IMG/VR virus record: IMGVR_UViG_3300024269_000017
Strand: one strand, 5' to 3'
Length of the DNA stretch: 64,000 nucleotides
Origin: a virus
Taxonomy: Duplodnaviria; Heunggongvirae; Uroviricota; Caudoviricetes
Shown: one piece after another, positions 53,926-63,953 of the stretch
How the letters are laid out: each line of letters opens with the position of its first letter
Position numbering within the stretch: position 1 is the first letter of the stretch
Made by a program: the position numbers and the translations under genes
Notes under the pieces: model-generated
Seen by the model: the letters and a program-made list of their open reading frames with translations, nothing else
Database searches by the model: none
What the model was told of the DNA's origin: nothing

Positions 53926-54201
53926 TTTAGTGGGAATTGTGACCAGGTATAACCCCTTTTCTCTTTCAAAATAATTTTTTTCCCGAAAGGGTGCCCGGAG
54001 GGTGAATGTTGAATGGATTTACATACCAGAAAAAAATACAAGAGTACTGCCAGCATCTGGAACGCTCGTCGGGGCGTGCATGGTCGGCACGCCCCGAGTT
54101 TGCGCAATAAACCTGTCATGCAACAAAAGCGTCGCGAATGCATTGAATGCATCATGTTAAGTGTTATCCTAAAACTTAATAAAAAAAATTGTAAAAACCT
54201 A

Positions 54202-54230
54202 TTGACAAACGCGGTCAGTTGTAGTATACT
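54202..54230 (+). promoter_or_regulatory. early promoter P1 (TTGACA-17-TATACT)
   Basis: cctaTTGACAaac-N-TATACTataat with A-rich upstream tract. Confidence 0.6.
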
Positions 54231-54281
54231 ATAATCACAGCAAGGGACAAGAGCCCAGCTGAAAGAAAGGAAGTAACTACA

Positions 54282-54560
54282 ATGATGACTGCTGAAATGC
54301 TGATGACCATGCTGGAAACCCTCGAACAGGCTGGCGATGTTGAAATCCGTCGCGAATCCGACACTGAAATCTGTGTGGATTTCATCGACTTCATCGGCTT
54401 CGATGATGACTGGTGTGAGCAGTTCCGTGACTATACCATGCCTGAGCTGGTTGAGCAGGTGCAGGACATCATCGACGAGCTGGGCACTGGTGACTTCTAC
54501 CATGAAGTGGTGCTTGATGGTGTGGGCTTCATGTTCGGTTGTACCTCTTACGACATCTAA
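54282..54560 (+). CDS. very acidic small protein (92 aa, ~25 D/E), DNA-mimic candidate
   Basis: conserved leader aaaggaagtaactaca-ATG; TAA stop. Confidence 0.6.
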   Translation: MMTAEMLMTMLETLEQAGDVEIRRESDTEICVDFIDFIGFDDDWCEQFRDYTMPELVEQVQDIIDELGTGDFYHEVVLDGVGFMFGCTSYDI

Positions 54561-54641
54561 GAGGTCACCGAGCACGGGCCTAGCTAGCCAACAAACAAGA
54601 GACACAACAAATAATTAACAAAAATAATCTGTATAAACCTA

Positions 54642-54670
54642 TTGACAAACATCCTGAAACCTGCTATAAT
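54642..54670 (+). promoter_or_regulatory. early promoter P2
   Basis: TTGACAaac-17-TATAAT. Confidence 0.6.
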
Positions 54671-54708
54671 AGGTAGTGTCAAGGGAACAACGAAAGGAGA
54701 TCAAAGCA

Positions 54709-55017
54709 ATGTTTATCCTCATGAAGTATTCGAAGGTAGAAAGTACTCGCACTCGCACCGCCGCACACAGAGTAGGTCTGTTCCGCACTCGCAAAGGTGC
54801 AAACAGAGTGATGGCAAGGCTTCTGGAAGCAGAAAAAAAGAAGCCTGTACCTGCCACTTTCAAGGTGGAACATGAGTGCTATTACAGTACCCGCGCATTC
54901 TGGGATGCTGTTGCACAGATGTACTGGGGTTGGCAGGATCGCCGCTATGCCAAACTGTTGGCGAAGTTCGACCGCATCCAGCAGAAGCTCGAAGCCATGA
55001 GGAGGGCAAGAGGATGA
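54709..55017 (+). CDS. hypothetical basic protein (102 aa)
   Basis: AAAGGAGATCAAAGCA-ATG; TGA stop. Confidence 0.55.
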   Translation: MFILMKYSKVESTRTRTAAHRVGLFRTRKGANRVMARLLEAEKKKPVPATFKVEHECYYSTRAFWDAVAQMYWGWQDRRYAKLLAKFDRIQQKLEAMRRARG

Positions 55018-55136
55018 ACAGCGCAAGGTTTAAGAAGCTCGTCAAGAGGAAAGAAAAGCAAGTCTATGCACAGAGGAGGGAAGAGCGATCTTCCCCCTCG
55101 AAAAAAAAGATAAAAAAGTTTGCGGAAAAGGCTTGA
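55014..55136 (+). CDS. possible 40-aa Lys/Arg-rich peptide
   Basis: ATGA overlap with upstream stop; very basic; no own RBS; weak. Confidence 0.25.
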   Translation: MNSARFKKLVKRKEKQVYAQRREERSSPSKKKIKKFAEKA

Positions 55137-55161
55137 CAAATACCCTAAGACGTGCTATACT
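55133..55161 (+). promoter_or_regulatory. early promoter P3
   Basis: gcTTGACAaa-17-TATACT then gtgtcgaaagggacaag. Confidence 0.6.
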
Positions 55162-55202
55162 AATAGTGTCGAAAGGGACAAGACAAAACACAGAAAGAGG
55201 TA

Positions 55203-55646
55203 ATGAGAATGAAGATCTGGTTCGATATGGATGGTACGATTGCTGACCTGTATGCGGTTGATGGATGGCTTCAGATGCTCCGAGCTTACGACCCTGCACC
55301 CTACGCAATGGCAAAGCCCATGCACCACATGGCAACGCTGGCAAGGATGCTCAACAGGGCACAGGCACAGGGACACGAACTCTGCATCATCAGCTGGTGT
55401 AGCAAGGAAAGCACTCTTGCCTATGATGAAGCAGTCCGAGCCGCCAAGCTCGCATGGCTCGCCAAGCATCTGCCTTCTGTTCATTGGGATGTGGTGGAGA
55501 TCGTTCCCTATGGGCAGAACAAGTGGGACACCTGCAAGAGCGGCATTCTCTTCGATGATGAAGAGCGCAACCGCAACGCATGGGAACAGGGCAAGGCGTT
55601 CACTCCCGAAACTATCTTCGCCACTCTCTCTGCACTCACTCGCTGA
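55203..55646 (+). CDS. HAD-superfamily 5'(3')-deoxyribonucleotidase-like protein (147 aa)
   Basis: N-terminal KIWFDMDGTIADL DxD motif and later ILFDDE motif typical of NT5C-type nucleotidases; AAAGAGGTAATGAGA-ATG. Confidence 0.55.
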   Translation: MRMKIWFDMDGTIADLYAVDGWLQMLRAYDPAPYAMAKPMHHMATLARMLNRAQAQGHELCIISWCSKESTLAYDEAVRAAKLAWLAKHLPSVHWDVVEIVPYGQNKWDTCKSGILFDDEERNRNAWEQGKAFTPETIFATLSALTR

Positions 55647-55675
55647 GTGCAGAGAGCAACAAGAAAGAGAGGTAA

Positions 55676-55915
55676 ATGACTATGGGATTCAGTTATAATA
55701 GTTATAATAGTGATAACTCTGGATGCGCGACTGTGATTGCGGCGCTGATTGTGCTGGCGCTGGTCATCTTCGCTGGGCCATGGGTTGTGCAGATGGGATA
55801 CAATGCAGTAAAGCTGGACTTCAACCTGCCTGACCTGAACTACTGGCAGTTCTTCTGGGCTACCAATGCATTGCAGGTTATCTTCAAGACCAATGTTTCC
55901 AGTAAGAGCAAGTGA
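55676..55915 (+). CDS. small membrane protein (79 aa)
   Basis: AGAGGTAAATGACT RBS; hydrophobic core; co-transcribed with 55203 gene. Confidence 0.5.
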   Translation: MTMGFSYNSYNSDNSGCATVIAALIVLALVIFAGPWVVQMGYNAVKLDFNLPDLNYWQFFWATNALQVIFKTNVSSKSK

Positions 55916-55925
55916 TAAATGAAAT

Positions 55926-55960
55926 GCAGGATGACTCCACACATCCTGCATTTCTTTTCC
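55926..55960 (+). terminator. rho-independent terminator
   Basis: GCAGGATGactccacaCATCCTGC followed by TTTCTTTTCC. Confidence 0.6.
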
Positions 55961-56400
55961 CTCTGGCCGGCTGGTGCACGGGCGCCAAGTCTGTGCACCA
56001 GCCGTATTCCCGCACGCATAGGCCATGCATAATTATTCATCGACAATGCATAAACATACAAAAACAAGCCCCATCCCAAAACAGAGCCACTCTCGTCTTC
56101 GCTTGCGCGGGCGGAATTTCACCGCCGTGGATGTATGGGGTGGAGTGATCGCGTAGGCTAGGGGGACGATTTGAACGTCTCTTCTACTTGCGTAGCGTGC
56201 TAACCGAGCTGACACTACCCGTTCGCCGCGATCTGGAAGCTCTTGATACCTGCGAGAGTTTTGCCACCGAGTAATCGCGAATCCTCAGTGCCCGTAGTGG
56301 TTGTGCTTCCCTCAACCTCTGATAGTATTATACTACAAGAGGGATCAAATGTCAATACCTTTTTGCAGAAAAAGAAAAAAAAGTTTTTTTCAAAAACCTA

Positions 56401-56429
56401 TTGACATTCCTGCCCACCTATGCTATAAT
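56401..56429 (+). promoter_or_regulatory. early promoter P4
   Basis: aaaaagtttttttcaaaaacctaTTGACAttcc-N-TATAAT. Confidence 0.6.
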
Positions 56430-56486
56430 AGTCTCAGTTGGTGAGGGAAACACCGACAAGACAAAATGACAAAGGTGGTAATCACA

Positions 56487-57056
56487 ATGAATGCACTGGA
56501 ACTGATGGATCTCTACTACGACCGCATGTGCGCTTGCACTTCCACTTCTGGACGCAACAACAACTTCAAAAAGATGCTTGCTCTGTGGGAAGAAAATGAA
56601 GTTGTTCGTGCGGTTTGGACTTTTGTCAAGGATGCCTATTTCATCGTTGATCGGTTTGTCAAGGGCGTTGTTGACAAGGTAAAGTCTTTCTTTAAGCCGA
56701 CCGCAAACGTGGTTTACTCCTGCGACAAGGTAGAGGGCAATCAGCTTGTGTATCTCCTGCGGCTGCTTAATGAAGAGGGCAATCTGGTTTGGTCAAAGGT
56801 CGGCACGACCACCCGAACCATTGAAGAACGCATGAGCGAACACCTGCGCTACTATCGCAAGTATGGTATCAAAACGATCGAAGTTACTAAAGTTTGGGAT
56901 TGCGGAGAAGTTGACGCAGAAGGTTTGGAAAGTTTCCTGCGTTCCAAGTACATCCGCAAGCATCCGAACACTTTCCAGAAAAATGATCGTTTCTATCAAG
57001 TTGAGTTTGATCTGGAACAGGCTGAAAAGTGGGTTGACTTCTATCTGAACGATTGA
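56487..57056 (+). CDS. T5orf172 / GIY-YIG-like domain protein (~190 aa)
   Basis: LVYLLRLL...WSKVGTTTRTIEERMSEH...DAEGLESFLRSKY pattern resembles T5orf172 domain; GGTGG RBS 8 nt before ATG 56487 (an upstream ATG at 56466 is also in frame). Confidence 0.5.
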   Translation: MNALELMDLYYDRMCACTSTSGRNNNFKKMLALWEENEVVRAVWTFVKDAYFIVDRFVKGVVDKVKSFFKPTANVVYSCDKVEGNQLVYLLRLLNEEGNLVWSKVGTTTRTIEERMSEHLRYYRKYGIKTIEVTKVWDCGEVDAEGLESFLRSKYIRKHPNTFQKNDRFYQVEFDLEQAEKWVDFYLND

Positions 57057-57087
57057 AAAAAAAGTTTGTCAAGGGCGTAAAAACCCC

Positions 57088-57116
57088 TTGACAAACAGCC
57101 CAAGATGCTGTATAAT
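57088..57116 (+). promoter_or_regulatory. early promoter P5
   Basis: ccccTTGACAaacagcccaagatgctgTATAAT; spacer nearly identical to P11 and P15. Confidence 0.6.
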
Positions 57117-57141
57117 AGTTAATGTAAAGGAGGTCAAGAAC

Positions 57142-57546
57142 ATGGCTAAGGAACTTCAGTATCCTACCCCTGAGTGGTTGGACGCCATGGTCGATAAGAC
57201 TGGTTGCTCACTGGAAGAAGCCGAAATGGCATGGTGGGACAAGCAGATCGACAAGGGCAACCCTACCCCATGGGACTTGCCACCCGAGCAAGAGAAGGAA
57301 GCACGCAAGGCGAACCGACCCAAGGCTCACAAGGTGGTTGACCCTGCAGGCAAGACCCGAACCCGAGAACGCAAGCCCAACGAGGACAAGCGACTATTGG
57401 TGGACTGCCTGCACGACGCATTGAAGGACTTTGACAACTGCGAGGTTGTCAACCCCGAGCGTCAAGTGGACTTTGTGCTGAACGGCGTTTCCTATTCGGT
57501 TACGCTGACCGCCCACCGACCCCCCAAGGACAAGGGGAAGGGCTGA
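57142..57546 (+). CDS. hypothetical protein (134 aa)
   Basis: AAAGGAGGTCAAGAAC-ATG; TGA stop. Confidence 0.55.
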   Translation: MAKELQYPTPEWLDAMVDKTGCSLEEAEMAWWDKQIDKGNPTPWDLPPEQEKEARKANRPKAHKVVDPAGKTRTRERKPNEDKRLLVDCLHDALKDFDNCEVVNPERQVDFVLNGVSYSVTLTAHRPPKDKGKG

Positions 57547-57597
57547 TACCCTTCCCCAAGCCCCGAAAAAAAACTTGAAAAAAGTTTCAAAAAGGGC

Positions 57598-57626
57598 TTG
57601 ACAAACCGACCGACCTGTGGTATACT
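57598..57626 (+). promoter_or_regulatory. early promoter P6
   Basis: gcTTGACAaaccgaccgacctgtggTATACT with A-tract UP element. Confidence 0.6.
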
Positions 57627-57697
57627 TAAGATGTTCCAAGGGAAGGAACAAAACAAAACGACAGCGCCAAGAGCGCGGAAAGAAAGAGGTAATCGCT

Positions 57698-58066
57698 ATG
57701 ACTACTATCAATGTGAAGAATGAGAAGCTGACCTACGTGACCGCCCTGACCTACGCCATTGAGAACGGCAACCTGCCCACCGAGATCGCGGAAAAGCTGA
57801 TTGCCCTGCGTACTCAGCAGGAGAAGCGTAACAGCGGTGAGAAGAAGCCGACCAAGGTTCAGGAAGCCAACGTTGGCATCAAGCAGGTTATCCTGACTGC
57901 CCTTGAGGGTCAGGAAGCCAAGACCGTAAGCGAGATTCAGACCCTTGCTCCCGAGCTGGGCGAGCTGAGCAATCAGAAGGTTGCAAGCCTTGTCCGTCAG
58001 CTTGTGGAAGAGGGCAAGCTGACCCGAATCGAGGAGAAGCGCAAGGCGTATTTCCGCCTTGCCTGA
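57698..58066 (+). CDS. winged-helix DNA-binding protein, paralog 1 (122 aa)
   Basis: AGAGGTAATCGCT-ATG; C-terminal SNQKVASLVRQLVEEGKLTRIEEKRKAYF shared with 61254 and 63165 genes. Confidence 0.6.
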   Translation: MTTINVKNEKLTYVTALTYAIENGNLPTEIAEKLIALRTQQEKRNSGEKKPTKVQEANVGIKQVILTALEGQEAKTVSEIQTLAPELGELSNQKVASLVRQLVEEGKLTRIEEKRKAYFRLA

Positions 58067-58113: not shown

Positions 58114-58142
58114 TTGACAACCTGCCTATCCTGTGCTATAAT
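58114..58142 (+). promoter_or_regulatory. early promoter P7
   Basis: ccccTTGACAacctgcctatcctgtgcTATAAT. Confidence 0.6.
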
Positions 58143-58187
58143 AGTATCAACGAAAGGGCAAGAGCCCGAACAACGAGGAGGATCCCC

Positions 58188-58445
58188 ATGAAGAACACCA
58201 TCGCTGCCACCCTGATCGCCAACTACGGTTTCGAAGCCCAGTCCAACTGCCTGTTCACTGGCAAGGGCTCTTGGCTGGCCTCTCACGAGACCGTCAAGGT
58301 CACCTTCCACGGTGACATGGTCACCATCGACCACTACCGCTTCTTCTGGGATGGCGGTGATGTGGAGTGGGAACGCTCCACGGTGGTCACCTGCCACCTC
58401 TCCCGACTGTGGGAGAACCTCCCCGAGTGGGTGCTCAGAGCCTGA
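58188..58445 (+). CDS. hypothetical protein (85 aa)
   Basis: GAGGAGGATCCCC-ATG; TGA stop. Confidence 0.55.
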   Translation: MKNTIAATLIANYGFEAQSNCLFTGKGSWLASHETVKVTFHGDMVTIDHYRFFWDGGDVEWERSTVVTCHLSRLWENLPEWVLRA

Positions 58446-58461
58446 GCCCCACTCTTTTTTT
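58425..58461 (+). terminator. rho-independent terminator
   Basis: GAGTGGG...CCCACTC stem with TTTTTTT; followed by a second GC hairpin. Confidence 0.5.
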
Positions 58462-58563
58462 ATTCGCCGGCGCGTGGGCGGGCGCTGCGCTTGCCCACTC
58501 GCCGAATTTCCGCGAGGAGCACCAGCCAGCAAAAAATAATTTGAAAAACTTGCAAAAAAGGTA

Positions 58564-58592
58564 TTGACAAATCATCCCGAATCTGCTATAAT
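58564..58592 (+). promoter_or_regulatory. early promoter P8
   Basis: gtaTTGACAaatcatcccgaatctgcTATAAT; near-identical to P18. Confidence 0.6.
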
Positions 58593-58913: not shown

Positions 58914-58942
58914 TTGACAAATCCCTCTGAGCATGGTATAAT
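58914..58942 (+). promoter_or_regulatory. early promoter P9 with inverted repeat flanking -35
   Basis: GCTCAGAGGGG-TTGACAA-ATCCCCTCTGAGC then catgg-TATAAT. Confidence 0.6.
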
Positions 58943-58979: not shown

Positions 58980-59318
58980 ATGACTAAGAAGATTTCTCTG
59001 AATGACTGGACCTACATCGGCAAGTACAATCCTGCGGCCAAGTGGCTTCGTCCCCTCTGCTCCTACTCTCTGACCGAAGCTGGTGCCTATTCTGCAGATG
59101 GCAACCCCGACTATCGCCGCGATTGCAAGATTAGCTGGCCTGTGTATCTGCTCCTGTTCCTGCCTGTGCATCTACTTCAGTTGCTGGTGTGCCTGTGGGA
59201 TGGCGGCTTGAAAGAATTTGAAATTGCAAGTCGCCACATTGGGCATGATTACATCACTGCACATGGCGACAACAGCGGACGCTATCAGATGGCAAAAGAA
59301 ATTTGGGAAAAGGCTTGA
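58980..59318 (+). CDS. protein with C-terminal transmembrane segment (112 aa)
   Basis: aaaggaagtaactaca-ATG; WPVYLLLFLPVHLLQLLVCLW hydrophobic stretch; its TGA lies inside the -35 of P10. Confidence 0.55.
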   Translation: MTKKISLNDWTYIGKYNPAAKWLRPLCSYSLTEAGAYSADGNPDYRRDCKISWPVYLLLFLPVHLLQLLVCLWDGGLKEFEIASRHIGHDYITAHGDNSGRYQMAKEIWEKA

Positions 59319-59343
59319 CAAAGCCTTTCCCCTGTGGTATAAT
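59315..59343 (+). promoter_or_regulatory. early promoter P10
   Basis: gcTTGACAaagcctttcccctgtggTATAAT. Confidence 0.55.
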
Positions 59344-59371: not shown

Positions 59372-59545
59372 ATGGGTATCATGATCGGTGCTATTGTTGC
59401 AAGTCAGACCGCTATGAGAGTGGCGGCAATGAATGCCATGAAAAAAAATCTGGAAAATCAGAAAAAAGCTGTTGACAAACAGCCCAAAGTGTGCTATACT
59501 AATAATGTCGAAAGGGACAACAGAAAGGAAGGTAAACAAAAATGA
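59372..59545 (+). CDS. 57-aa peptide whose 3' half is embedded in promoter P11
   Basis: GAAGGAGTGATAAAC-ATG strong RBS; hydrophobic N-terminus; TGA overlaps the ATG of 59542 gene. Confidence 0.4.
   Translation: MGIMIGAIVASQTAMRVAAMNAMKKNLENQKKAVDKQPKVCYTNNVERDNRKEGKQK
59472..59500 (+). promoter_or_regulatory. early promoter P11
   Basis: gTTGACAaacagcccaaagtgtgcTATACT then aataatgtcgaaagggacaac. Confidence 0.6.
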
Positions 59546-59856
59546 TGAAGATCGAAATGACCAAACACGCTATGGTAGACCGCATTGACCGCTGTGTGTA
59601 CATTGCACAGAAGATTGGCTTCGGTGACAAGATTGTGTGCGAAGGTTTCCGCAGAGACAAGGGCACTCGGCAGTGCCTGTCCGAAACTGGTGTGCTGATT
59701 GTCAAGATGCCGGAAAGCGAAACCATGGTGACTGCTTACATTCCCACTCTTGAACAGGCTGGCATGATTTACAAGTCCGCAGGCTTGCACATGCCGAACT
59801 GGATGGCACAGAAAATCAAGAAGAATCAGAAGTATGCAAAGGGCTGTCCTGTGTGA
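59542..59856 (+). CDS. hypothetical protein (104 aa)
   Basis: ORF track; AAAGGAAGGTAAACAAAA-ATG. Confidence 0.6.
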   Translation: MMKIEMTKHAMVDRIDRCVYIAQKIGFGDKIVCEGFRRDKGTRQCLSETGVLIVKMPESETMVTAYIPTLEQAGMIYKSAGLHMPNWMAQKIKKNQKYAKGCPV

Positions 59857-59891
59857 CAGCCCTTTGCAAGAAAAAAATTTTCAAAAAGGTA

Positions 59892-59920
59892 TTGACAACC
59901 TGCCGAACCTATGGTATAAT
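59892..59920 (+). promoter_or_regulatory. early promoter P12
   Basis: aaaaattttcaaaaaggtaTTGACAacctgccgaacctatggTATAAT. Confidence 0.6.
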
Positions 59921-59952
59921 AAGTACAACGAAAGACGAAAGGAAGTAACACA

Positions 59953-60426
59953 ATGAACACTCTGCTTCTCACCTTCATCCTGCTGAACATCGCCAATGTT
60001 ATCATTCAGACCGTCAAGAGCATTGCAACCATCAAATGCGGAAAAGGGGTCGCCGCGATTGTTAACGCTGTTGCCTTCGGACTCTACACTGTGGTCACTG
60101 TCTACATGATGTGCGATTTGCCTCTTGCCACCAAGGCGCTGATTGTCGCAGGCTGTAACCTTGTGGGTGTGTATGTGGTCAAGTATTTTGAAGAAAAGGC
60201 AAGAAAAGACAAACTCTGGAAAGTCGAAGTCACCATTCCTGCCGAACAAGCAGAACAGATGATTGAAGATTGCAAATACTATGGATTCACTTACAACTAT
60301 GTGAACATCGAAAAGTATTTCTTGTTTAACTTCTATTGTCCCACTCAGCAGGACAGTCTGAATGTTAAGAAACTGTTACAGAGCTATGATGCAAAATACT
60401 TTGTGACTGAAAGCAAAAATTTGTGA
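59953..60426 (+). CDS. membrane protein, 2 predicted TM helices plus soluble C-terminal domain (157 aa)
   Basis: ORF track; aaaggaagtaacaca-ATG; hydrophobic N-terminal ~80 aa. Confidence 0.6.
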   Translation: MNTLLLTFILLNIANVIIQTVKSIATIKCGKGVAAIVNAVAFGLYTVVTVYMMCDLPLATKALIVAGCNLVGVYVVKYFEEKARKDKLWKVEVTIPAEQAEQMIEDCKYYGFTYNYVNIEKYFLFNFYCPTQQDSLNVKKLLQSYDAKYFVTESKNL

Positions 60427-60434
60427 GAAAGGGG

Positions 60435-60463
60435 TTGACAACCCCTCTCACATGTGGTATAAT
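60435..60463 (+). promoter_or_regulatory. early promoter P13 with inverted repeat flanking -35
   Basis: GTGAGAAAGGGG-TTGACAA-CCCCTCTCAC then atgtgg-TATAAT. Confidence 0.6.
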
Positions 60464-60493
60464 AAGTACATCAAAAGGAAAGAGGTAATGAAC

Positions 60494-60766
60494 ATGAGAG
60501 CAACTGGTATTGTAAGAAGAGTCGATGAACTGGGTCGCATTGTTATCCCCAAGGAAATCCGCAGGAACCTGAACATCAAAGAGGGCGATCCCCTTGAGAT
60601 GTATCTGGACAAGGAATACGGGCTTGTGATGAAGCCCTACCATGAAGAGCATCTGAGCTTTGACCGCCTGCAGTCTGAGTGGGAAAGCCTGAGCACCGCA
60701 AAGCGGCAGGAACTGATCTGCGAAATGGTGAACCACCTCGATGACCCCATCCGCTGTGAAGAGTGA
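60494..60766 (+). CDS. AbrB/MazE/SpoVT-family (swapped-hairpin) transcriptional regulator (~90 aa)
   Basis: N-terminus MRATGIVRRVDELGRIVIPKEIRRNLNIKEGDPLE matches AbrB-N domain pattern; AAAGAGGTAATGAAC-ATG. Confidence 0.6.
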   Translation: MRATGIVRRVDELGRIVIPKEIRRNLNIKEGDPLEMYLDKEYGLVMKPYHEEHLSFDRLQSEWESLSTAKRQELICEMVNHLDDPIRCEE

Positions 60767-60786
60767 CCGCAAGGTCACTCTTTTTT
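60761..60786 (+). terminator. rho-independent terminator (first of tandem pair)
   Basis: GAGTGACCgcaaGGTCACTC + TTTTTT. Confidence 0.7.
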
Positions 60787-60793
60787 CGCCCGC

Positions 60794-60820
60794 GCGCCCA
60801 CGAGCGTGGGCGCCGGTTTT
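60794..60820 (+). terminator. second tandem terminator
   Basis: GCGCCCACgagcGTGGGCGC cgg TTTT. Confidence 0.6.
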
Positions 60821-60912
60821 CCCGCGTATCCTTCCATTATACCATTTTTCGAGCAATTTGTCAATAGGCAAACTGCACAAACTTTTTCCCGAAACTTTGT
60901 GCAATCTGTCAA

Positions 60913-60941
60913 TAGACATTTGGGGTCTGATACTGTATAAT
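60913..60941 (+). promoter_or_regulatory. variant promoter (TAGACA-17-TATAAT) with conserved upstream TTTGTGCAATCTGTCAA element and palindrome
   Basis: caaTAGACAtttggggtctgatactgTATAATagataatgtcaggaggg; same architecture recurs at 62818. Confidence 0.5.
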
Positions 60942-61022
60942 AGATAATGTCAGGAGGGCACTGAGGTGATGCCGAGTGAAGCTGGTCGACAAAACTTCTT
61001 CAAAAAAAGTTTTGAAAAACCC

Positions 61023-61051
61023 TTGACAAAGCCGCCAAGATGTGATATACT
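61023..61051 (+). promoter_or_regulatory. early promoter P14b (drives ~90-nt leader RNA)
   Basis: cccTTGACAaagccgccaagatgtgaTATACT. Confidence 0.55.
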
Positions 61052-61143
61052 GATAGTGTCAAGAGGGCAAGGAACTGCAAGAGGAACCCTTCGGCGCTGA
61101 AGCGCACAGGATAAAAACTCAAAAAAAAAGTTTCAAAAACCCC

Positions 61144-61172
61144 TTGACAAACACCGCAAGGTGTGGTACAAT
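61144..61172 (+). promoter_or_regulatory. early promoter P14c
   Basis: ccccTTGACAaacaccgcaaggtgtggTACAAT. Confidence 0.55.
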
Positions 61173-61253
61173 AAGGATGTCGAAAGGGCAAGGCGCCAGC
61201 CCCACTCGACAGTCACTAACACCAATCGACAAGAAAGAAAGAGGTAATGAATC

Positions 61254-61607
61254 ATGGAAAAGATGACTTATGTGAAGGCTCTGGAAGTTGCTCTGAACTG
61301 CGAAGCTCTGTCTGCCGAAGTGCGTGAGAAGCTGTCTGCTCTGCGTGACCAGCAGGTCAAGCGTAACTCTGCGGAGAAGAAGCCCACCAAGACCCAGCAG
61401 GCGAATGAGGGCGTGAAGTCCCATGTGCTGGAAGTGCTGGCTTCCTGCGCCCAGCCTGTGACTGTGTCTGAACTGATGCAGGCTGATGAAGAGCTGTCCC
61501 AGCTCTCCAATCAGAAGGTCGCTTCGCTGGTTCGCCAGCTGGTGGAAGCTGGCAAGGTTCAGCGACTGGAAGAGAAGCGCAAGGCTTACTTCACTCTGGT
61601 GAAGTGA
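61254..61607 (+). CDS. winged-helix DNA-binding protein, paralog 2 (117 aa)
   Basis: ORF track; AGAGGTAATGAATC-ATG; shares SNQKVASLVRQLVEAGK...EEKRKAYF with paralogs. Confidence 0.65.
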   Translation: MEKMTYVKALEVALNCEALSAEVREKLSALRDQQVKRNSAEKKPTKTQQANEGVKSHVLEVLASCAQPVTVSELMQADEELSQLSNQKVASLVRQLVEAGKVQRLEEKRKAYFTLVK

Positions 61608-61667
61608 CCTTGCGGGGCAGGGGTAAAACCCTGCCCCATCTTCCCGAAAAAAAGTTTCAAAAAGGTA

Positions 61668-61696
61668 TTGACAAACAGCCCAACATCTGCTATAAT
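61668..61696 (+). promoter_or_regulatory. early promoter P15
   Basis: aaaaagtttcaaaaaggtaTTGACAaacagcccaacatctgcTATAAT. Confidence 0.6.
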
Positions 61697-61740
61697 AGAT
61701 AATGTCGAAAGGCAATAGAACAAGAAAGAGGTAATGCAAA

Positions 61741-62397
61741 ATGAATCGCCACTTCTACATTCTGATGGATACTGAAACTGCCAACGGTCTGGATTGCCCC
61801 ATCAACTACAATACCGCATGGTCTGTAATTGACCAGCACGGCAACACCTACGAAAACTTCAATTTCATCAACCGCGACATTTTCTTTGACCGTCCCGAAC
61901 TCATGCAGTCCGCATACTACGCCCACAAGATTCCGCAGTATCTTGAACAGATTGAACGCGGCGAAATCAAGGTTGCAACGTGGTACGAAATCCGCAAGGC
62001 GTTCCGCGACTGTTGCGAAAAGTACAACATCAAGGCAGTTATCGCCCACAATGCCCGATTCGACTATCGCTCCTGCACGATGACCCAGCGTTACGAAACC
62101 TGCTCCAAGTATCGCTACTTCTTCCCGAAGGGCGTTGAAATTTGGGACACGCTGGCAATGGCTCGTGATGTGGTCGCCCCGATGCCCACTTACCGCAAGT
62201 GGTGCGAAACCAACGGTTTCACCTTGAAGAACGGACAGCCCCGACTGACCGCCGAAATCCTGTTCCGCTTCATCTCCAAGGACATTGACTTTGTGGAAGA
62301 ACACAAGGCAATGGAAGATGTGAACATCGAAAAGGAAATCTTTTGGTACTGCATCCGCAAGCACAAGGCAATGCGTCGAAAGGCTTTCAAGGACTGA
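61741..62397 (+). CDS. DnaQ-like DEDDh 3'-5' exonuclease (218 aa)
   Basis: YILMDTETANG (Exo I), AHNARFDYR (Exo II), EEHKAMEDV (Exo III H-x4-D) motif pattern; AGAGGTAATGCAAA-ATG. Confidence 0.6.
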   Translation: MNRHFYILMDTETANGLDCPINYNTAWSVIDQHGNTYENFNFINRDIFFDRPELMQSAYYAHKIPQYLEQIERGEIKVATWYEIRKAFRDCCEKYNIKAVIAHNARFDYRSCTMTQRYETCSKYRYFFPKGVEIWDTLAMARDVVAPMPTYRKWCETNGFTLKNGQPRLTAEILFRFISKDIDFVEEHKAMEDVNIEKEIFWYCIRKHKAMRRKAFKD

Positions 62398-62404
62398 AAA
62401 AGTC

Positions 62405-62433
62405 CTTGACAGCCGCCCCAAAGTGTGATATAA
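62405..62433 (+). promoter_or_regulatory. early promoter P16
   Basis: gtccTTGACAgccgccccaaagtgtgaTATAAT. Confidence 0.6.
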
Positions 62434-62465
62434 TAAGTACATCAAAAGGAAAGAGGTAATTGACC

Positions 62466-62702
62466 ATGACTCAGTTTCAGTATGAAGTAAATGTTTACGA
62501 AGAAGACCACGTCCTGTCCTGCAAGACCAACAATCCCCGCACCGCCTGCCAGTTTATGCTGGATCATGCCGACTGCTATCTTGATGTCATCAACGGTTTT
62601 ACTGGTGAAGTGCTCGCTGTGATGAACCATGAGAATGCTTACTGTCAAGAGGATTTCGGGCTGATGCTTCTCGGCTATATGACCGAAACAATTTGGGGCT
62701 GA
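62466..62702 (+). CDS. hypothetical protein (78 aa)
   Basis: AAAGAGGTAATTGACC-ATG; TGA stop. Confidence 0.55.
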   Translation: MTQFQYEVNVYEEDHVLSCKTNNPRTACQFMLDHADCYLDVINGFTGEVLAVMNHENAYCQEDFGLMLLGYMTETIWG

Positions 62703-62728
62703 CCCTTCGGGGTTGGCTCTTTTCTTTT
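62697..62728 (+). terminator. rho-independent terminator (first of tandem pair)
   Basis: GGCTGACCCttcgGGGTTGGCT + CTTTTCTTTT. Confidence 0.6.
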
Positions 62729-62731
62729 GAG

Positions 62732-62763
62732 CCGGTCGTGCGCGGGCCACACGACCGGTTTTT
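62732..62763 (+). terminator. second tandem terminator
   Basis: CCGGTCGTGcgcgggccaCACGACCGG + TTTTT. Confidence 0.7.
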
Positions 62764-62817
62764 CCGCAATGGGCAGATCTACCAAGAAATTCGCTGAAAA
62801 TTTGTGCATTTTGCCAA

Positions 62818-62846
62818 TAGACATTTTATCCCGAAAGTGGTATACT
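62818..62846 (+). promoter_or_regulatory. variant promoter (TAGACA-17-TATACT), second copy
   Basis: tttgtgcattttgccaaTAGACAttttatcccgaaagtggTATACTaataatgtcaggagggg. Confidence 0.5.
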
Positions 62847-62938
62847 AATAATGTCAGGAGGGGAGGCCAAGAAACCGAGAGGCGGCCGACTCTCAGGAAG
62901 TAGAGGAAGAAAACTTGAAAAAAAGTTTCCGAAACCTC

Positions 62939-62967
62939 TTGACAAACCACTGACCCTGTGGTATAAT
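62939..62967 (+). promoter_or_regulatory. early promoter P17b (drives ~95-nt structured leader RNA)
   Basis: ctcTTGACAaaccactgaccctgtggTATAAT. Confidence 0.55.
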
Positions 62968-63090
62968 AAGGGTGTCAGGTGAGGGAAGCAACTGACAGTC
63001 GCTTAGCCAAGGTAGCCTGCGGAGTGGGTGCGCAACACTCCATGGTTAGACCCTGTGCAAGCGAAGCGAAAAAAAAGTTTGCGAAACCCC

Positions 63091-63119
63091 TTGACAAACA
63101 ACTGAATAGGTGCTATAAT
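63091..63119 (+). promoter_or_regulatory. early promoter P17c
   Basis: ccccTTGACAaacaactgaataggtgcTATAAT. Confidence 0.6.
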
Positions 63120-63164
63120 AAGAGTGTCCTAAGGGACAAGACAAAAAGAAAGAGGTAATGAATC

Positions 63165-63572
63165 ATGATGAAGTTCACTAAGAAGGTTGCTCTGGAAGTC
63201 GCTATCAATGCTATCGAGAACTCCACCCTGCCCAACTGGTCTTTCACTGAGGGCGAGGAAACCCTGACCATCTCCAAAGCGGAAGCCATCGAGAAGCTCC
63301 AGAAGATGATTGAGCAGTTGGAGGCTAAGTCCAACGCTCCCAAGAAGCCCACTAAGGTGCAGGAAGCCAACGAGGGTGTCAAGGACATCATCAAGGCTGT
63401 GCTGGAAGGTCAGTCCCCCATGACTGTCTCCGAAATCATGACCCACTCTGCGGAACTGAGTGCCCTGTCCAACCAGAAGGTCGCCTCTCTGGTGCGCCAG
63501 ATGGTCGAGGCTGGCGTGCTGGTTCGCACTGAGGAAAAGCGCAAGGCTTTCTTCGCCCTCGCTCAGGGCTGA
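63165..63572 (+). CDS. winged-helix DNA-binding protein, paralog 3 (135 aa)
   Basis: ORF track; AGAGGTAATGAATC-ATG; shares SNQKVASLVRQMVEAG...EEKRKAFF. Confidence 0.65.
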   Translation: MMKFTKKVALEVAINAIENSTLPNWSFTEGEETLTISKAEAIEKLQKMIEQLEAKSNAPKKPTKVQEANEGVKDIIKAVLEGQSPMTVSEIMTHSAELSALSNQKVASLVRQMVEAGVLVRTEEKRKAFFALAQG

Positions 63573-63576
63573 GCCT

Positions 63577-63601
63577 GAGACCCCGAAAGGGGTCTCTTTT
63601 T
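63577..63601 (+). terminator. rho-independent terminator (first of tandem pair)
   Basis: GAGACCCCgaaaGGGGTCTC + TTTTT. Confidence 0.7.
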
Positions 63602-63607
63602 CTTGGG

Positions 63608-63638
63608 CTGCTCGCGGACGGGCGCCGCGAGCAGTTTT
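63608..63638 (+). terminator. second tandem terminator
   Basis: CTGCTCGCGGacgggcgCCGCGAGCAG + TTTT. Confidence 0.6.
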
Positions 63639-63693
63639 CCGCGATACACTAGACCCACCGAAAAATTTTCTTGAAAAATCGGCATTTTAGGGG

Positions 63694-63722
63694 TTGACAG
63701 ATTATCCCGAATCTGATATAAT
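63694..63722 (+). promoter_or_regulatory. early promoter P18 (near-duplicate of P8)
   Basis: ggggTTGACAgattatcccgaatctgaTATAAT. Confidence 0.6.
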
Positions 63723-63749
63723 AGAACCATCGAAAGGAGCTGATCTGAA

Positions 63750-63890
63750 ATGTTCACCTGTCCTGCACTCTGTATCCTTGGTCTGGTTCTCTCTATGTGG
63801 GGATTCATCTGGGGTATCTTCTTCCAGGAATTCCTGTGGCTGTGTGTAGCTGGTTTTGCGCTGGGCTGGATGTTTTCTAAAGATTGTTGA
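63750..63890 (+). CDS. 46-aa hydrophobic membrane peptide
   Basis: AAAGGAGCTGATCTGAA-ATG; two hydrophobic helices; TGA stop. Confidence 0.45.
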   Translation: MFTCPALCILGLVLSMWGFIWGIFFQEFLWLCVAGFALGWMFSKDC

Positions 63891-63899
63891 AATTAGGGG

Positions 63900-63928
63900 T
63901 TGACAAACTGCCCCAACTGTGTTATAAT
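63900..63928 (+). promoter_or_regulatory. early promoter P19
   Basis: ggggTTGACAaactgccccaactgtgtTATAAT. Confidence 0.6.
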
Positions 63929-63953
63929 AATAATGTCGAAAGGAGCTGATAGC

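What the first reader, a model, noticed from the sequence alone, without database searches (positions are those of the whole stretch)
54196..63930. Array of ~23 near-identical strong sigma70-type promoters, one per small early gene
Each unit reads A-tract (aaaaagtttcaaaaa), cccTTGACAAAC, a 17-nt spacer, TGcTATAAT, then a conserved transcribed leader and Shine-Dalgarno (aaaggaagtaactaca or aagaaagaggtaatgaatc) and ATG. Several spacers are near-duplicates (P5/P11/P15 and P8/P18), which suggests recent promoter duplication or gene-cassette shuffling. Units are separated by strong, often tandem, rho-independent terminators. The result is a 10-kb battery of independently and strongly expressed short genes, typical of a host-takeover or anti-defence early region but unusually regular.
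Basis: seen in the sequence. Interest (0 to 1): 0.8.

Follow-up and report, generated by a model that had tools for sequence, protein, structure and literature searches.

The report
Early-gene promoter array of a recoded phage
A 10-kb stretch of a large gut phage carries 23 near-perfect host-type promoters, mostly one per small gene. This is the familiar "take over the host first" block of lytic phages, here in a phage whose late genes read the TAG stop codon as an amino acid.

Summary
There are 23 plus-strand TTGACA-17 nt-TATAAT sites (at most 1 mismatch per hexamer) between 54202 and 63928. The whole window has 18 exact matches against 0.15 expected. Conservation is confined to the positions RNA polymerase reads: A-tracts, -35, TRTG/TGn and -10. 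The sites lie 25-110 nt upstream of ATG genes with Shine-Dalgarno sequences. Independent assemblies show four more units beyond the window, giving 27 in about 11 kb.

Best reading: this is the host-RNA-polymerase-dependent early/host-takeover module of a roughly 130-kb-class siphovirus related to phAss-1, Enterococcus phage H1 and Geobacillus E3. It is the same kind of thing as the SPO1 host-takeover module, T4 early promoters and Kayvirus early promoters.

It is not unusual within its clade. 81 of 82 related loci carry such arrays, with up to 37 promoters.

- Four promoters drive no ORF; they form conserved triple tandems upstream of wHTH regulator paralogs.
- Only five gene ends have canonical, tandem terminators.
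- Recent promoter duplication is weakly supported, but cassette shuffling between relatives is seen.

New context: the late genes carry 104 in-frame TAG codons and end mostly in TAA, with GC3 of 0.24. The array has no in-frame TAG, ends mostly in TGA, and has GC3 of 0.64. No expression data exist, so timing and strength are inferred.

The parts
54202..54230 (+). P1 promoter (-35 to -10), drives 54282-54560
   Evidence: TTGACA-17-TATACT
54642..54670 (+). P2 promoter, drives 54709-55017
   Evidence: 12/12 match, TGn
55133..55161 (+). P3 promoter, drives 55209-55646 and 55676-55915; leader TGTCGAAAGGGACA
56401..56429 (+). P4 promoter, drives 56487-57056
57088..57116 (+). P5 promoter, drives 57142-57546
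57598..57626 (+). P6 promoter, drives wHTH paralog 57698-58066 (72-nt leader)
58114..58142 (+). P7 promoter, drives 58188-58445
58564..58592 (+). P8 promoter, drives 58643-58894
58914..58942 (+). P9 promoter, drives 58980-59318; the -35 lies in the loop of a hairpin (about 58902-58932)
59315..59343 (+). P10 promoter, drives 59372-59545; the -35 lies in the loop of hairpin 59305-59332
59472..59500 (+). P11 promoter (inside ORF 59372-59545), drives 59542-59856
59892..59920 (+). P12 promoter, drives 59953-60426
60435..60463 (+). P13 promoter, drives the AbrB/MazE-like gene 60494-60766; hairpin 60423-60451 encloses the -35
60913..60941 (+). P14, 'class II' promoter (TTTGTGCA-N9-TAGACA), no ORF; first of a triple tandem
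   Evidence: orthologous element in L036, Phass-1 and L006
61023..61051 (+). P15 promoter, no ORF; second of the triple tandem
61144..61172 (+). P16 promoter, drives wHTH paralog 61254-61607; third of the triple tandem
61668..61696 (+). P17 promoter, drives the DEDDh exonuclease-like gene 61741-62397
62406..62434 (+). P18 promoter, drives 62466-62702
62818..62846 (+). P19, 'class II' promoter (TTTGTGCA-N9-TAGACA), no ORF; first of the second triple tandem
62939..62967 (+). P20 promoter, no ORF; second of the triple tandem
63091..63119 (+). P21 promoter, drives wHTH paralog 63165-63572
63694..63722 (+). P22 promoter, drives 63750-63890
63900..63928 (+). P23 promoter, drives the gene starting at 63955 (runs off the window; 157 aa in L001)
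60836..60864 (-). Minus-strand class II promoter, back-to-back with P14; reads into GC hairpin 60794-60813 and antisense into the AbrB-like gene's terminators
   Evidence: relatives have it as half of a face-to-face pair
56327..56355 (-). Minus-strand promoter driving a non-coding transcript
56058..56320 (-). Putative ~260-nt non-coding RNA with a tRNA T-arm-like hairpin (GACGTTCAAATCGTC); terminator-like hairpin at 56088-56067
   Evidence: no tRNA, tmRNA or Rfam match
54282..54560 (+). gene, 92 aa, no family
54709..55017 (+). gene, 102 aa, no family (a doubtful 40-aa ORF, 55014-55136, overlaps P3)
55209..55646 (+). gene, 145 aa, NT5C-like 5'(3')-deoxyribonucleotidase
55676..55915 (+). gene, 79 aa, membrane protein; no promoter of its own
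56487..57056 (+). gene, 189 aa, T5orf172 domain
57142..57546 (+). gene, 134 aa ('gene A'), conserved next to the wHTH gene in L011 and L016; resemblance to Phass-1 (read by eye only); paralog at 63955->
57698..58066 (+). wHTH paralog 1, 122 aa
58188..58445 (+). gene, 85 aa
58643..58894 (+). gene, 83 aa (phrog_5321)
58980..59318 (+). gene, 112 aa
59372..59545 (+). gene, 57 aa; reads across P11
59542..59856 (+). gene, 104 aa
59953..60426 (+). gene, 157 aa, membrane N-terminus; conserved together with the AbrB-like gene in relatives
60494..60766 (+). gene, 90 aa, AbrB/MazE/SpoVT-type domain
61254..61607 (+). wHTH paralog 2, 117 aa (AF2 pLDDT 90.8; ArsR/SmtB/MarR/Fur-like winged helix)
61741..62397 (+). 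gene, 218 aa, DEDDh 3'-5' exonuclease-like (invariant D10, E12, N104, D108, H188, D193)
62466..62702 (+). gene, 78 aa
63165..63572 (+). wHTH paralog 3, 135 aa
63750..63890 (+). gene, 46 aa, membrane peptide
55921..56003 (+). Tandem terminator 1: hairpin 55921-55954 + U-tract, then GC hairpin 55969-56003 + TATTCCCGC
   Evidence: by reading
58425..58514 (+). Tandem terminator 2: hairpin + T7 (58425-58461), then GC hairpin 58468-58504 + AATTTCCGCG
   Evidence: by reading
60761..60826 (+). Tandem terminator 3: hairpin + T6 (60761-60786), then GC hairpin 60794-60813 + CGGTTTTCCCGCG
   Evidence: by reading
62695..62767 (+). Tandem terminator 4: 62695-62720 + U-tract, then GC hairpin 62732-62758 + TTTTTCCGC
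63577..63643 (+). Tandem terminator 5: 63577-63596 + U-tract, then GC hairpin 63608-63634 + TTTTCCGCG

Best explanation
The region is the early (host-takeover) gene module of a large lytic siphovirus of a Firmicute host. I infer the following sequence of events.

1. After DNA entry, the host's unmodified housekeeping RNA polymerase (sigma-A holoenzyme) binds 23 promoters in the window, 27 in the whole module. The contacts would be alpha-CTDs on two phased A-tracts (a UP element), sigma region 4 on TTGACAAAC, sigma region 3 on TRTG/TGn, and sigma region 2 on TATAAT at the optimal 17-bp spacing.
2. Transcription starts about 6-8 nt downstream of the -10. It yields short mono- or bicistronic mRNAs with purine-rich Shine-Dalgarno sites and ATG starts.
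3. Many leaders begin with a conserved SD-like or small-hairpin element, (A/G)UGUCGAAAGGGACA. I propose it protects the 5' end (STAB-SD / 5'-stabiliser type) or serves as an operator.
4. Five tandem terminators split the module into blocks. Elsewhere, weak hairpins allow read-through.
5. The products are mostly small proteins with few family matches. A conserved core consists of wHTH DNA-binding paralogs (each behind one or three promoters), 'gene A', a DEDDh exonuclease, a deoxynucleotidase, and an AbrB/MazE-like protein.
6. Because every gene carries its own promoter, cassettes can be reshuffled without loss of expression.
7. The module is written for the naive host: standard code, no TAG at all, TGA stops, GC3 of 0.64. 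The divergently transcribed late genes need TAG read as sense (probably Gln) and use AT-rich codons (GC3 0.24).

Shown: the sequence grammar, its statistics, its conservation across the clade, and the code and composition split. Inferred: that the sites fire, that they fire early, and what the leader does.
For: Promoter statistics:
- 18 exact matches against 0.15 expected.
- 23 plus-strand sites, all with 17-nt spacers and all co-oriented with the genes.
- Information content is restricted to UP, -35, TRTG, -10 and the leader.
- TGn is present in 20 of 23.

Genes and code:
- All 20 genes start with ATG behind a purine-rich SD.
- 18 of 20 stop at TGA, and there is no in-frame TAG.
- Late frames carry 104 in-frame TAG and 21 of 23 end in TAA. 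GC3 is 0.24 against 0.64 in the array.
- TAG-containing frames are homologous to portal and tail proteins of Enterococcus phage H1. TAG most often aligns with Q.

Independence of assembly: ENA and JGI assemblies share the array's right junction, and L001 also spans the left one.

Comparative evidence:
- The same architecture occurs in Phass-1, Enterococcus H1, L005, L006 and L008.
- It occurs in 81 of 82 loci found through the exonuclease gene. The logo of 1390 distinct promoters conserves the same positions.
- H1 has the same synteny: late operon and terminase facing away from the array.

Benchmarks:
- SPO1's host-takeover module has about 13 promoters with the same aaaaattttNcaaaaagNNN-TTGAC layout (PMC6873191).
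- Kayvirus early promoters, mapped by RNA-seq, read TTGACW-17-TRTGN-TATANT with the start 6 nt after the -10 (PMC7698491).
- T4 early promoters are 'uber' UP/-35/TGn/-10 promoters (PMC2988021).

Other:
- Cassette order differs from L011 and L016.
- The wHTH fold is predicted with pLDDT 90.8 and matches ArsR/SmtB/MarR/Fur-type regulators.
Against: - There is no transcript, 5'-end or timing data for this phage or, as far as I found, any clade member. Two papers on these phages never mention promoters.
- The host is unknown, so 'host-type' rests on the general Firmicute consensus.
- Four promoters have no ORF and two face the wrong way, so protein expression is not the whole story.
- The generic terminator scan is not above chance.
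- The neighbouring 'sigma factor' gene is supported only by a PHROG label. Pfam and the PDB sequence search gave nothing. How the switch to late transcription works is therefore open.
- No suppressor tRNA was found in the window or in the array loci.
Confidence: 0.78

Rival explanations
1. RNA-polymerase sink or regulatory-RNA platform. Part of the array exists to capture or steer host RNA polymerase, or to make small RNAs, rather than to express proteins. The candidate parts are the ORF-less cassettes P14, P15, P19 and P20, the minus-strand promoters, and (in relatives) face-to-face promoter pairs 36-38 bp apart. This would add to, not replace, the early-gene reading.
For: - Four plus-strand promoters and two minus-strand promoters have no ORF.
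- The triple-tandem arrangement with a TTTGTGCA-N9-T[AT]GAC[AT] first member is conserved in Phass-1 and L036, with a two-promoter version in L006.
- There are 65 face-to-face pairs in relatives (39 distinct GC-rich gaps under relaxed criteria). They bracket a GC hairpin with covariation: 98% of cells paired, 5 of 8 pairs changed on both sides, 0 of 500 shuffles as good.
- Open complexes 36-38 bp apart would be mutually exclusive (inference from the known footprint of RNA polymerase).
Against: - Tandem promoters in front of a highly expressed gene are ordinary (rRNA P1/P2; T7 A1-A3).
- The ORF-less cassettes could be remnants of lost genes.
- In the window the face-to-face partner is missing, and three of the five hairpins have only decayed minus-strand promoters (read).
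- No evidence for any RNA product.
Confidence: 0.12
2. The sites are sigma-A promoters but not specifically early. They might be constitutive or middle promoters, or repressed on entry by a host or phage factor. One candidate is host Spo0A binding the TGTCGAA boxes at +1, as in phi29.
For: - TGTCGAA, the 0A-box consensus (PMC2731898), sits at the same offset after the -10 in 5 of 23 promoters.
- TGTC-N6-GACA in P3, P11 and P21 looks like an operator.
- Three wHTH regulators are encoded in the array.
Against: - The window-wide count of TGTCGAA is at chance (7 found, 6.4 expected).
- The motif is not in the clade-wide logo.
- A standard-code, promoter-per-gene block divergent from the TAG-recoded late genes fits 'first expressed' best.
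- A second promoter class with an A/T-tract spacer, lying outside the arrays, is a better candidate for middle promoters.
Confidence: 0.08
3. The repeats are a mobile or recombination repeat (MITE-like or attC-like) unrelated to transcription. Alternatively, the GC-rich block is a mis-assembly or a recent foreign insertion.
For: - There is a sharp GC jump, 35-39% to 49%.
- An HNH/DUF2726 homing-endonuclease-like gene sits at the left border.
- Cassette order is shuffled between relatives.
Against: - Conservation is limited to polymerase-contact positions. No two units exceed 64% identity.
- Orientation and distance to the SD+ATG are fixed.
- ENA and JGI assemblies both cover the array's right junction; the left one is covered by L001.
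- The low-GC part uses the same TTGACA...TGnTATAAT promoters (36931, 52340).
- Arrays with higher GC3 than their flanks recur in 25 of 28 non-redundant relatives, including Phass-1.
- Array proteins are more diverged from Phass-1 than the terminase is (27% against 45% identity).
Confidence: 0.03

Closest known systems
Host-takeover module of Bacillus phage SPO1 (genes 37-60; PMC6873191)
   Same: - A block of about 10-12 kb of small, mostly orphan early genes.
- Each gene or short operon sits behind a strong sigma-A promoter and a strong RBS.
- The UP layout is nearly identical: aaaaattttNcaaaaagNNN-TTGAC, 17-nt spacer, TGTG before the -10.
- Structured or purine-rich 5' leaders.
   Different: - SPO1 has about 13 promoters in 9.5 kb on two diverging strands, lying in the terminal redundancy. 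Here there are 27 in 11 kb, nearly all on one strand, and the terminal position was not tested.
- The phage lineage is unrelated: SPO1 is a myovirus (Herelleviridae), this is a phAss-1/H1-like siphovirus.
- No protein matches to named SPO1 products appeared in the family searches; not compared directly.
- SPO1 uses the standard code throughout.
Early promoters of Staphylococcus Kayvirus vB_SauM-515A1, mapped by RNA-seq (PMC7698491)
   Same: Same grammar: TTGACW, 17 bp, TRTGN, TATANT, start about 6 nt after the -10. There are many copies (58), and tandem promoters sit on the most highly expressed host-takeover units.
   Different: Kayvirus early promoters are spread over 81% of the genes rather than concentrated in one array. 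There is no recoding and no compositional island.
T4 early 'uber' promoters (PMC2988021); T5 and T7 early promoters (own knowledge)
   Same: Promoters that combine every recognition element (UP, -35, TGn, -10) so as to out-compete host promoters. They show extra conserved positions beyond the canonical elements, including downstream of the start.
   Different: The host is E. coli. T4 adds Alt ADP-ribosylation, and there is no evidence for such a factor here.
TAG-recoded (code 15) gut phages: phAss-1/Phassvirus (PMC10607447) and the early-standard / late-recoded model (bioRxiv 10.1101/2021.08.26.457843)
   Same: - The terminase is 45% identical to that of Phass-1.
- In-frame TAG occurs in structural genes, including a 3791-codon tape-measure-like frame.
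- Late genes prefer TAA stops.
- There is a standard-code part that can be read by the naive host.
   Different: - Those papers do not analyse promoters ('promoter' occurs 0 times in each).
- They do not describe the early array or its GC3 shift.
- No suppressor tRNA lies in this 64-kb window.
STAB-SD / polypurine 5' stabilisers of Bacillus mRNAs (Agaisse & Lereclus 1996; Hue et al. 1995, the latter from an SP82 early RNA by my own recollection; both are cited in PMC3997798)
   Same: An SD-like GAAAGGG element a few nucleotides from the predicted 5' end, with no start codon at initiation distance, followed by the true SD further downstream.
   Different: Function is untested. In short-leader units the same element is simply the SD. 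In several units it can also form a small 5' hairpin (UGUC-GAAAGG-GACA).

Membership tests
Housekeeping sigma-70/sigma-A promoter (Firmicute type) | -35 TTGACA and -10 TATAAT separated by 17 +/- 1 bp | tested here: met
   23 of 23 plus-strand sites have at most 1 mismatch per hexamer and a 17-nt spacer. 18 exact matches in the window against 0.15 expected.
Housekeeping sigma-70/sigma-A promoter (Firmicute type) | Extended -10 (TGn, TRTG at -16) | tested here: met
   TGn in 20 of 23. The consensus is TgTG.
Housekeeping sigma-70/sigma-A promoter (Firmicute type) | UP element (A/T tracts at -40 to -60) | tested here: met
   A-tracts at about -57..-51 and -44..-40 carry 0.8-1.6 bits. SPO1 has the same layout.
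Housekeeping sigma-70/sigma-A promoter (Firmicute type) | Transcription start 6-8 nt downstream of the -10; open complex with holoenzyme | not testable with these tools
   Needs 5'-end mapping or in vitro transcription.
Phage early / host-takeover module (SPO1 type) | Cluster of small genes, each gene or operon with a strong host-type promoter and strong RBS | tested here: met
   20 genes of 40-218 aa. 18 have their own promoter, and all have an SD plus ATG.
Phage early / host-takeover module (SPO1 type) | Expressed immediately after infection without phage protein synthesis | not testable with these tools
   No expression data. Indirect support: standard code and no TAG, against TAG-dependent late genes.
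Phage early / host-takeover module (SPO1 type) | Products shut off or redirect host processes | not testable with these tools
   Several genes have no Pfam or PHROG match. The annotated ones are a deoxynucleotidase, T5orf172, AbrB/MazE-like, DEDDh exonuclease and wHTH.
Phage early / host-takeover module (SPO1 type) | Location in the terminal redundancy / first DNA to enter | not tested
   Genome ends are unknown. The array lies about 4 kb from the terminase gene, and several contigs end in or near arrays, which proves nothing.
Stop-codon-recoded phage (TAG read as sense, code 15-like) | Many in-frame TAG in otherwise intact structural genes | tested here: met
   Coverage by frames of at least 150 codons rises from 0.72 to 0.95 when TAG is treated as sense. 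There are 104 in-frame TAG in total, 42 of them in a 3791-codon frame. The frames are homologous to H1 portal and tail proteins.
Stop-codon-recoded phage (TAG read as sense, code 15-like) | TAG decoded as Gln | tested here: inconclusive
   TAG aligns with Q at 7 of 28 aligned positions, E at 5 and D at 3, at 23-39% identity.
Stop-codon-recoded phage (TAG read as sense, code 15-like) | Suppressor tRNA(CUA) encoded by the phage | tested here: inconclusive
   No tRNA in the 64-kb window or in the array loci. The rest of the genome is not available. Phass-1 carries its suppressor tRNAs elsewhere in its genome.
Stop-codon-recoded phage (TAG read as sense, code 15-like) | Early or standard-code part free of the recoded codon | tested here: met
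   No in-frame TAG in the 20 array genes; stops are TGA (18) and TAA (2).
Intrinsic (rho-independent) terminators between all units | GC-rich hairpin followed by a U-tract at each unit boundary | tested here: not met
   Only five boundaries have them, each tandem. The scan gives 14 sites against 11.9 expected. Other boundaries have hairpins without a U-tract.
STAB-SD / 5' mRNA stabiliser | SD-like sequence near the 5' end without an associated start codon | tested here: met
   'aAAGGg' at +9..+14 after the -10 carries 0.9-1.6 bits. Leaders read show no start codon at 5-12 nt in the long-leader units.
STAB-SD / 5' mRNA stabiliser | Increases mRNA half-life through 30S binding | not testable with these tools
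   Needs half-life measurements with and without the element.
Spo0A '0A box' operator (phi29 type) | TGTCGAA boxes, usually paired, at or near the promoter | tested here: inconclusive
   5 of 23 promoters have an exact box at the same offset, and others have 1-2 mismatches. There are no paired boxes, the window-wide count is at chance, and the host is unknown.

The most novel reading that the evidence does not exclude
In this clade of TAG-recoded gut phages the early array may be a distinct 'boot block' written in the host's dialect: standard code, TGA stops, and GC3 of 0.64 against 0.24 in the late genes. Part of it may not be protein-coding at all. It contains conserved ORF-less promoter cassettes, TTTGTGCA-type promoters, and face-to-face promoter pairs 36-38 bp apart around a covarying GC hairpin. 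These may trap or insulate host RNA polymerase, or make small RNAs that time the hand-over to the recoded programme. The GC3 island would then be maintained by selection, for example for host codon match, mRNA stability, or escape from silencing of AT-rich DNA, rather than reflecting recent transfer.
Probability: 0.2. Interest if true: 0.7.

Novelty: new member of a known kind. Interest (0 to 1): 0.45.

Why it matters
- It supplies the missing transcription map for a large, uncultured group of gut phages. 485 relatives of one array gene are in IMG/VR, and the published descriptions deal only with their genetic code.
- It gives a concrete, testable picture of how a recoded phage starts up. A promoter-per-gene, standard-code block is read by the naive host. 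It lies opposite a TAG-dependent late operon.
- The units are compact, apparently very strong Firmicute expression cassettes (UP, -35, TRTG, -10, leader and SD in about 110 bp). They could serve as parts for Clostridia or Enterococcus engineering.
- Cultivable relatives such as Enterococcus phage H1 and EF1 make the predictions testable.
- The array itself is not a new kind of system.

Tried and rejected
- crAss-like phage. The first impression came from a 2437-aa ORF and PHROG hits. It was rejected because the terminase groups with Geobacillus E3, Enterococcus H1 and Phass-1.
- Megablast of the array and of 22 kb of late genes against GenBank phages: no match.
- tRNA and tmRNA search of the window and of seven loci: nothing.
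- Rfam at gathering threshold over the window, and at permissive threshold over 55850-56450: only chance-level hits.
- nhmmer of the non-coding RNA region against relatives: no hit. Only a 38-nt blastn match in L011.
- Sigma-factor identity of 51224-52312: a PHROG label only. Pfam and the PDB sequence search were negative.
- PDB sequence search for the exonuclease and the wHTH protein: nothing useful.
- Hairpins with the -35 in the loop, as a general rule. They are clear in Enterococcus H1 (7 of 16 promoters), but only 2-3 occur in this phage and they are not above the control.
- A late-promoter motif in the late-region intergenic stretches: none seen by eye.
- A correlation between the GC3 shift and TAG density in the flanks: not significant (rho 0.26, p 0.18).
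- Recent duplication of promoters: the excess of similar spacers lies within the null range.

Full report

Yes. The exact pattern TTGACA-N15-19-TATAAT occurs 18 times in the 64-kb window, against 0.15 expected from shuffles. Fifteen of these lie on the plus strand between 54642 and 63928.

Allowing one mismatch per hexamer gives 23 plus-strand sites from 54202 to 63928, every one with a 17-nt spacer. Twenty of the 23 have TGn in front of the -10.

An ungapped alignment of the 23 units shows information only where RNA polymerase reads DNA:
- two A-tracts at about -57..-51 and -44..-40 (a full UP element);
- TTGACAAAC;
- TgTG, the Gram-positive '-16 TRTG';
- TATAAT;
- a leader motif, 'tc.aAAGGg', a few bases after the predicted start.

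The rest of the spacer and the flanks vary. No two whole units are more than 64% identical.

**2. Corrections to the description**

- Four promoters are followed by no credible ORF: P14 60913, P15 61023, P19 62818 and P20 62939. The 'ORFs' there are translations of the next promoter. With P16 and P21 they form two triple tandems in front of two paralogous genes.
- Two genes (55014-55136, which is doubtful, and 55676-55915) have no promoter of their own.
- Canonical terminators exist at only five gene ends (after 55915, 58445, 60766, 62702 and 63572). Each is followed by a second GC-rich hairpin and a short T-run with CCGC (TTTTCCGCG-like). The generic scan is not above chance (14 against 11.9).
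- Other gene ends have hairpins without a U-tract. At P9, P10 and P13 the hairpin encloses the next -35 in its loop.
- Similar spacers exist (P11/P17 and P8/P22, 14 of 17 identical). The excess of similar pairs, however, is within a column-permutation null: 15 observed, mean 7.5, maximum 22.
- Two promoters of the same type face the other way: 60864-60836 and 56355-56327.
- The array is cut by the window end. Two independent assemblies (ENA k141_453581 and JGI Ga0257077_10002300) carry the same sequence and show four more units. After that the GC content falls back, giving 27 promoters in about 11 kb.

**3. What genome is this?**

The first 52 kb are minus-strand late genes at 35-39% GC. The array is 49% GC.

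The terminase (48302-49918) is 45-48% identical to those of Geobacillus virus E3, Enterococcus phages H1/VRE9/EF1 and Phage Phass-1. These are large siphoviruses of Firmicutes. Phass-1 is filed under the 'Caudoviricetes code 15 clade' (PMC10607447).

The window's late region is recoded too:
- Treating TAG as sense raises coverage by frames of at least 150 codons from 0.72 to 0.95.
- It fuses fragments into a 3791-codon tape-measure-like frame (42 TAG), a 2004-codon frame (18 TAG), a portal-like frame (7 TAG) and others.
- These frames are homologous to portal and tail proteins of the non-recoded Enterococcus phage H1. TAG most often faces Gln (7 of 28 aligned positions).
- Late frames end in TAA (21 of 23).

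The 20 array genes contain no TAG at all and end in TGA (18) or TAA (2). GC3 is 0.64 in the array and 0.24 in the late frames. Gln is CAG in the array (36 per 1000 codons, against 3 for CAA) and CAA in late genes (25 against 9).

The block is not an assembly artefact:
- ENA and JGI assemblies both cover the array's right junction; the left one is covered by L001.
- The low-GC part uses the same promoter type (36931-36903 and 52340-52312).
- Phass-1 shows the same gradient: array GC3 0.64, late 0.36.

**4. Comparative evidence**

Around homologues of the array's DEDDh exonuclease gene (61741-62397), Phass-1, Enterococcus H1 and two faecal fragments all carry the same kind of array.

A profile search of IMG/VR found 485 relatives. 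Of the 82 loci examined, 81 have a plus-strand array, with a median of 17 and up to 37 promoters at 1-3 per kb. The logo of 1390 distinct promoters keeps the A-tracts, TTGACA, T.TG., TATAAT and a purine-rich leader.

H1 also has the same large-scale layout: the late operon and terminase face away from the array.

The array in the window is therefore typical of its clade, not unusually regular.

Gene-cassette order differs between this phage and its nearest relatives, L011 and L016. This supports cassette shuffling. A core recurs across relatives: deoxynucleotidase, 'gene A', wHTH, exonuclease, and a membrane protein with an AbrB-like protein.

Array ORFs have higher GC3 than flanking long ORFs in 25 of 28 non-redundant loci (median +0.11). 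These loci are related, so the p-value is not independent. The window phage is the extreme case.

**5. How it most likely works**

Shown: the grammar, the statistics, the conservation, and the code and composition split.

Inferred: the host sigma-A holoenzyme fires at these sites immediately after DNA entry. This produces short mRNAs for small proteins that prepare the cell. The block can be read by the naive host because it avoids TAG. The divergent late operon needs TAG suppression.

This inference leans on established cases:
- SPO1's host-takeover module (PMC6873191). I scanned it and found about 13 promoters with an almost identical UP layout.
- Kayvirus early promoters mapped by RNA-seq, TTGACW-17-TRTGN-TATANT with the start 6 nt after the -10 (PMC7698491).
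- T4's 'uber' early promoters (PMC2988021).

The conserved leader, (A/G)TGTCGAAAGGGACA, is an SD-like element near the 5' end with no start codon. In several units it can also form a small 5' hairpin. I favour a 5'-stabiliser role, of the STAB-SD or polypurine type cited in PMC3997798.

It could instead be an operator. It contains TGTCGAA, the Spo0A box consensus (PMC2731898), at the same offset in 5 promoters, and TGTC-N6-GACA in three.

The genes behind the tandem promoters are three paralogs of a winged-helix protein. The AlphaFold2 model has pLDDT 90.8, and the best PDB matches are ArsR/SmtB, MarR and Fur-type regulators at E of about 1e-3. These are plausible early regulators.

**6. What remains unexplained**

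(a) ORF-less cassettes. Their first member is a distinct promoter type, TTTGTGCA-N9-T[AT]GAC[AT], with the leader ATGTCAGGAGGG. It is conserved in phages whose proteins are only about 55% identical.

(b) Face-to-face promoters. In relatives such promoters come as pairs 36-38 bp apart around a GC hairpin. The stem covaries: 98% of cells are paired, 5 of 8 pairs change on both sides, and 0 of 500 shuffles do as well. The window has a derived copy, hairpin 60794-60813 with the minus promoter 60864-60836. Four further hairpins now look like second terminators.

(c) A minus-strand non-coding transcript. It runs from about 56320 to 56058, starting at promoter 56355-56327, and contains a tRNA T-arm-like hairpin. 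It has a recognisable homologue only in L011, with its modules in a different order. No tRNA, tmRNA or Rfam model matches it.

(d) The GC3 island itself. Host codon match, mRNA stability, avoidance of spurious AT-rich signals and escape from silencing are all possible. None was tested.

**7. Verdict**

The finding is real, and its main interpretation stands as the best-supported reading (confidence 0.78). It is an instance of a well-known kind of phage module in a lineage where it had not been described. Two papers on these phages do not mention promoters.

The added value lies in three things: the link to stop-codon recoding, the codon-dialect split, and the conserved non-coding promoter elements.

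Noticed in passing
window 504-52312, minus strand: The late/structural region reads TAG as a sense codon. There are 104 in-frame TAG, including 42 in a 3791-codon tape-measure-like frame (24880-36255) and 18 in a 2004-codon frame (18766-24780). 21 of 23 frames stop at TAA. TAG most often aligns with Gln in Enterococcus phage H1 homologues.
   Followed up: yes
window 54000-64000 against 1-54000; L001 1000-12000; L003; 28 loci: The early array is a compositional island: GC 49% against 35-39%, and GC3 0.64 against 0.24. Phass-1 shows the same gradient (0.64 against 0.36). 25 of 28 related loci have array GC3 above their flanks, while Enterococcus H1 shows no difference.
   Followed up: yes
window 56058-56355, minus strand; L011 3870-4270: Promoter 56355-56327 drives a non-coding transcript of about 260 nt. 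It has a tRNA T-arm-like hairpin and a conserved 38-mer (CGGTGAAATTCCGCCCGCGCAAGCGAAGACGAGAG). The only homologue, in L011, has the two modules in swapped order. ARAGORN and Rfam find nothing.
   Followed up: partly
window 60794-60864; L003 2969-3060 and 5173-5263; L030-L050 (e.g. L036 8868-8963): Face-to-face strong promoters whose -10 boxes are only 36-38 bp apart bracket a GC-rich hairpin with clear covariation. They occur 3-4 times per array in many relatives. The window keeps one minus-strand promoter plus hairpin, and four hairpins with decayed promoters.
   Followed up: partly
window 60896-60941 and 62801-62846; L003 3102 and 5305; L006 5660; L036 ~9000-9060: A promoter subtype with an upstream TTTGTGCA, a weakened -35 (TAGACA or TTGACT) and the leader ATGTCAGGAGGG is conserved at DNA level across distant relatives. 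It is the first member of the tandems before the wHTH / 'gene A' genes in this window, Phass-1 and L006. 146 of 1390 clade promoters carry the TTTGTGCA motif.
   Followed up: partly
window 52340-52312 (-), 36931-36903 (-), 52359-52387 (+); L001 11673-14685; L003 10168-16753: A second promoter class has an A(4+)T(4+) tract at a fixed place in the spacer (TTGACnnnAAAAAATTTTTnTGnTATAAT). It lies outside the arrays, in front of the late operon and the replication genes. These are possible middle promoters. 50 of 1687 promoters belong to it.
   Followed up: partly
window 58902-58932, 59305-59332, 60423-60451; L004 (7 of 16 promoters): Hairpins whose loop is the -35 hexamer of the next promoter, so that terminator or 3'-end hairpin and promoter overlap. 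This is prominent in Enterococcus phage H1, where a U-tract follows, but only 2-3 cases occur here.
   Followed up: partly
window 55167, 59506, 61178, 61703, 63934: TGTCGAA, identical to the Spo0A '0A box' consensus, lies at the same offset after the -10 in five promoters. These are five of the seven occurrences in the window (PMC2731898).
   Followed up: partly
window 51224-52312, minus strand: The first gene of the late-facing operon matches a PHROG labelled 'sigma factor' (E 2e-37) and contains 3 in-frame TAG. It has no Pfam sigma domain and no PDB sequence relative, and its C-terminus is Cys-rich.
   Followed up: partly
window 53107-53925: An HNH/DUF2726 homing-endonuclease-like gene sits at the left border of the GC-rich array. 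A similar small ORF lies at 47923-48301, next to the terminase gene.
   Followed up: no
window 57698-58066, 61254-61607, 63165-63572; 57142-57546 and 63955->: There are three paralogs of a winged-helix protein (family of 435 clusters in metagenomes) and two paralogs of 'gene A'. In Phass-1 the whole unit (triple promoter, gene A, wHTH, exonuclease) is duplicated.
   Followed up: yes
window 504-7817, minus strand: A 2437-aa ORF without any TAG matches phrog_14959/24896, both of unknown function. It first suggested a crAss-like virion RNA polymerase and was not examined further.
   Followed up: no
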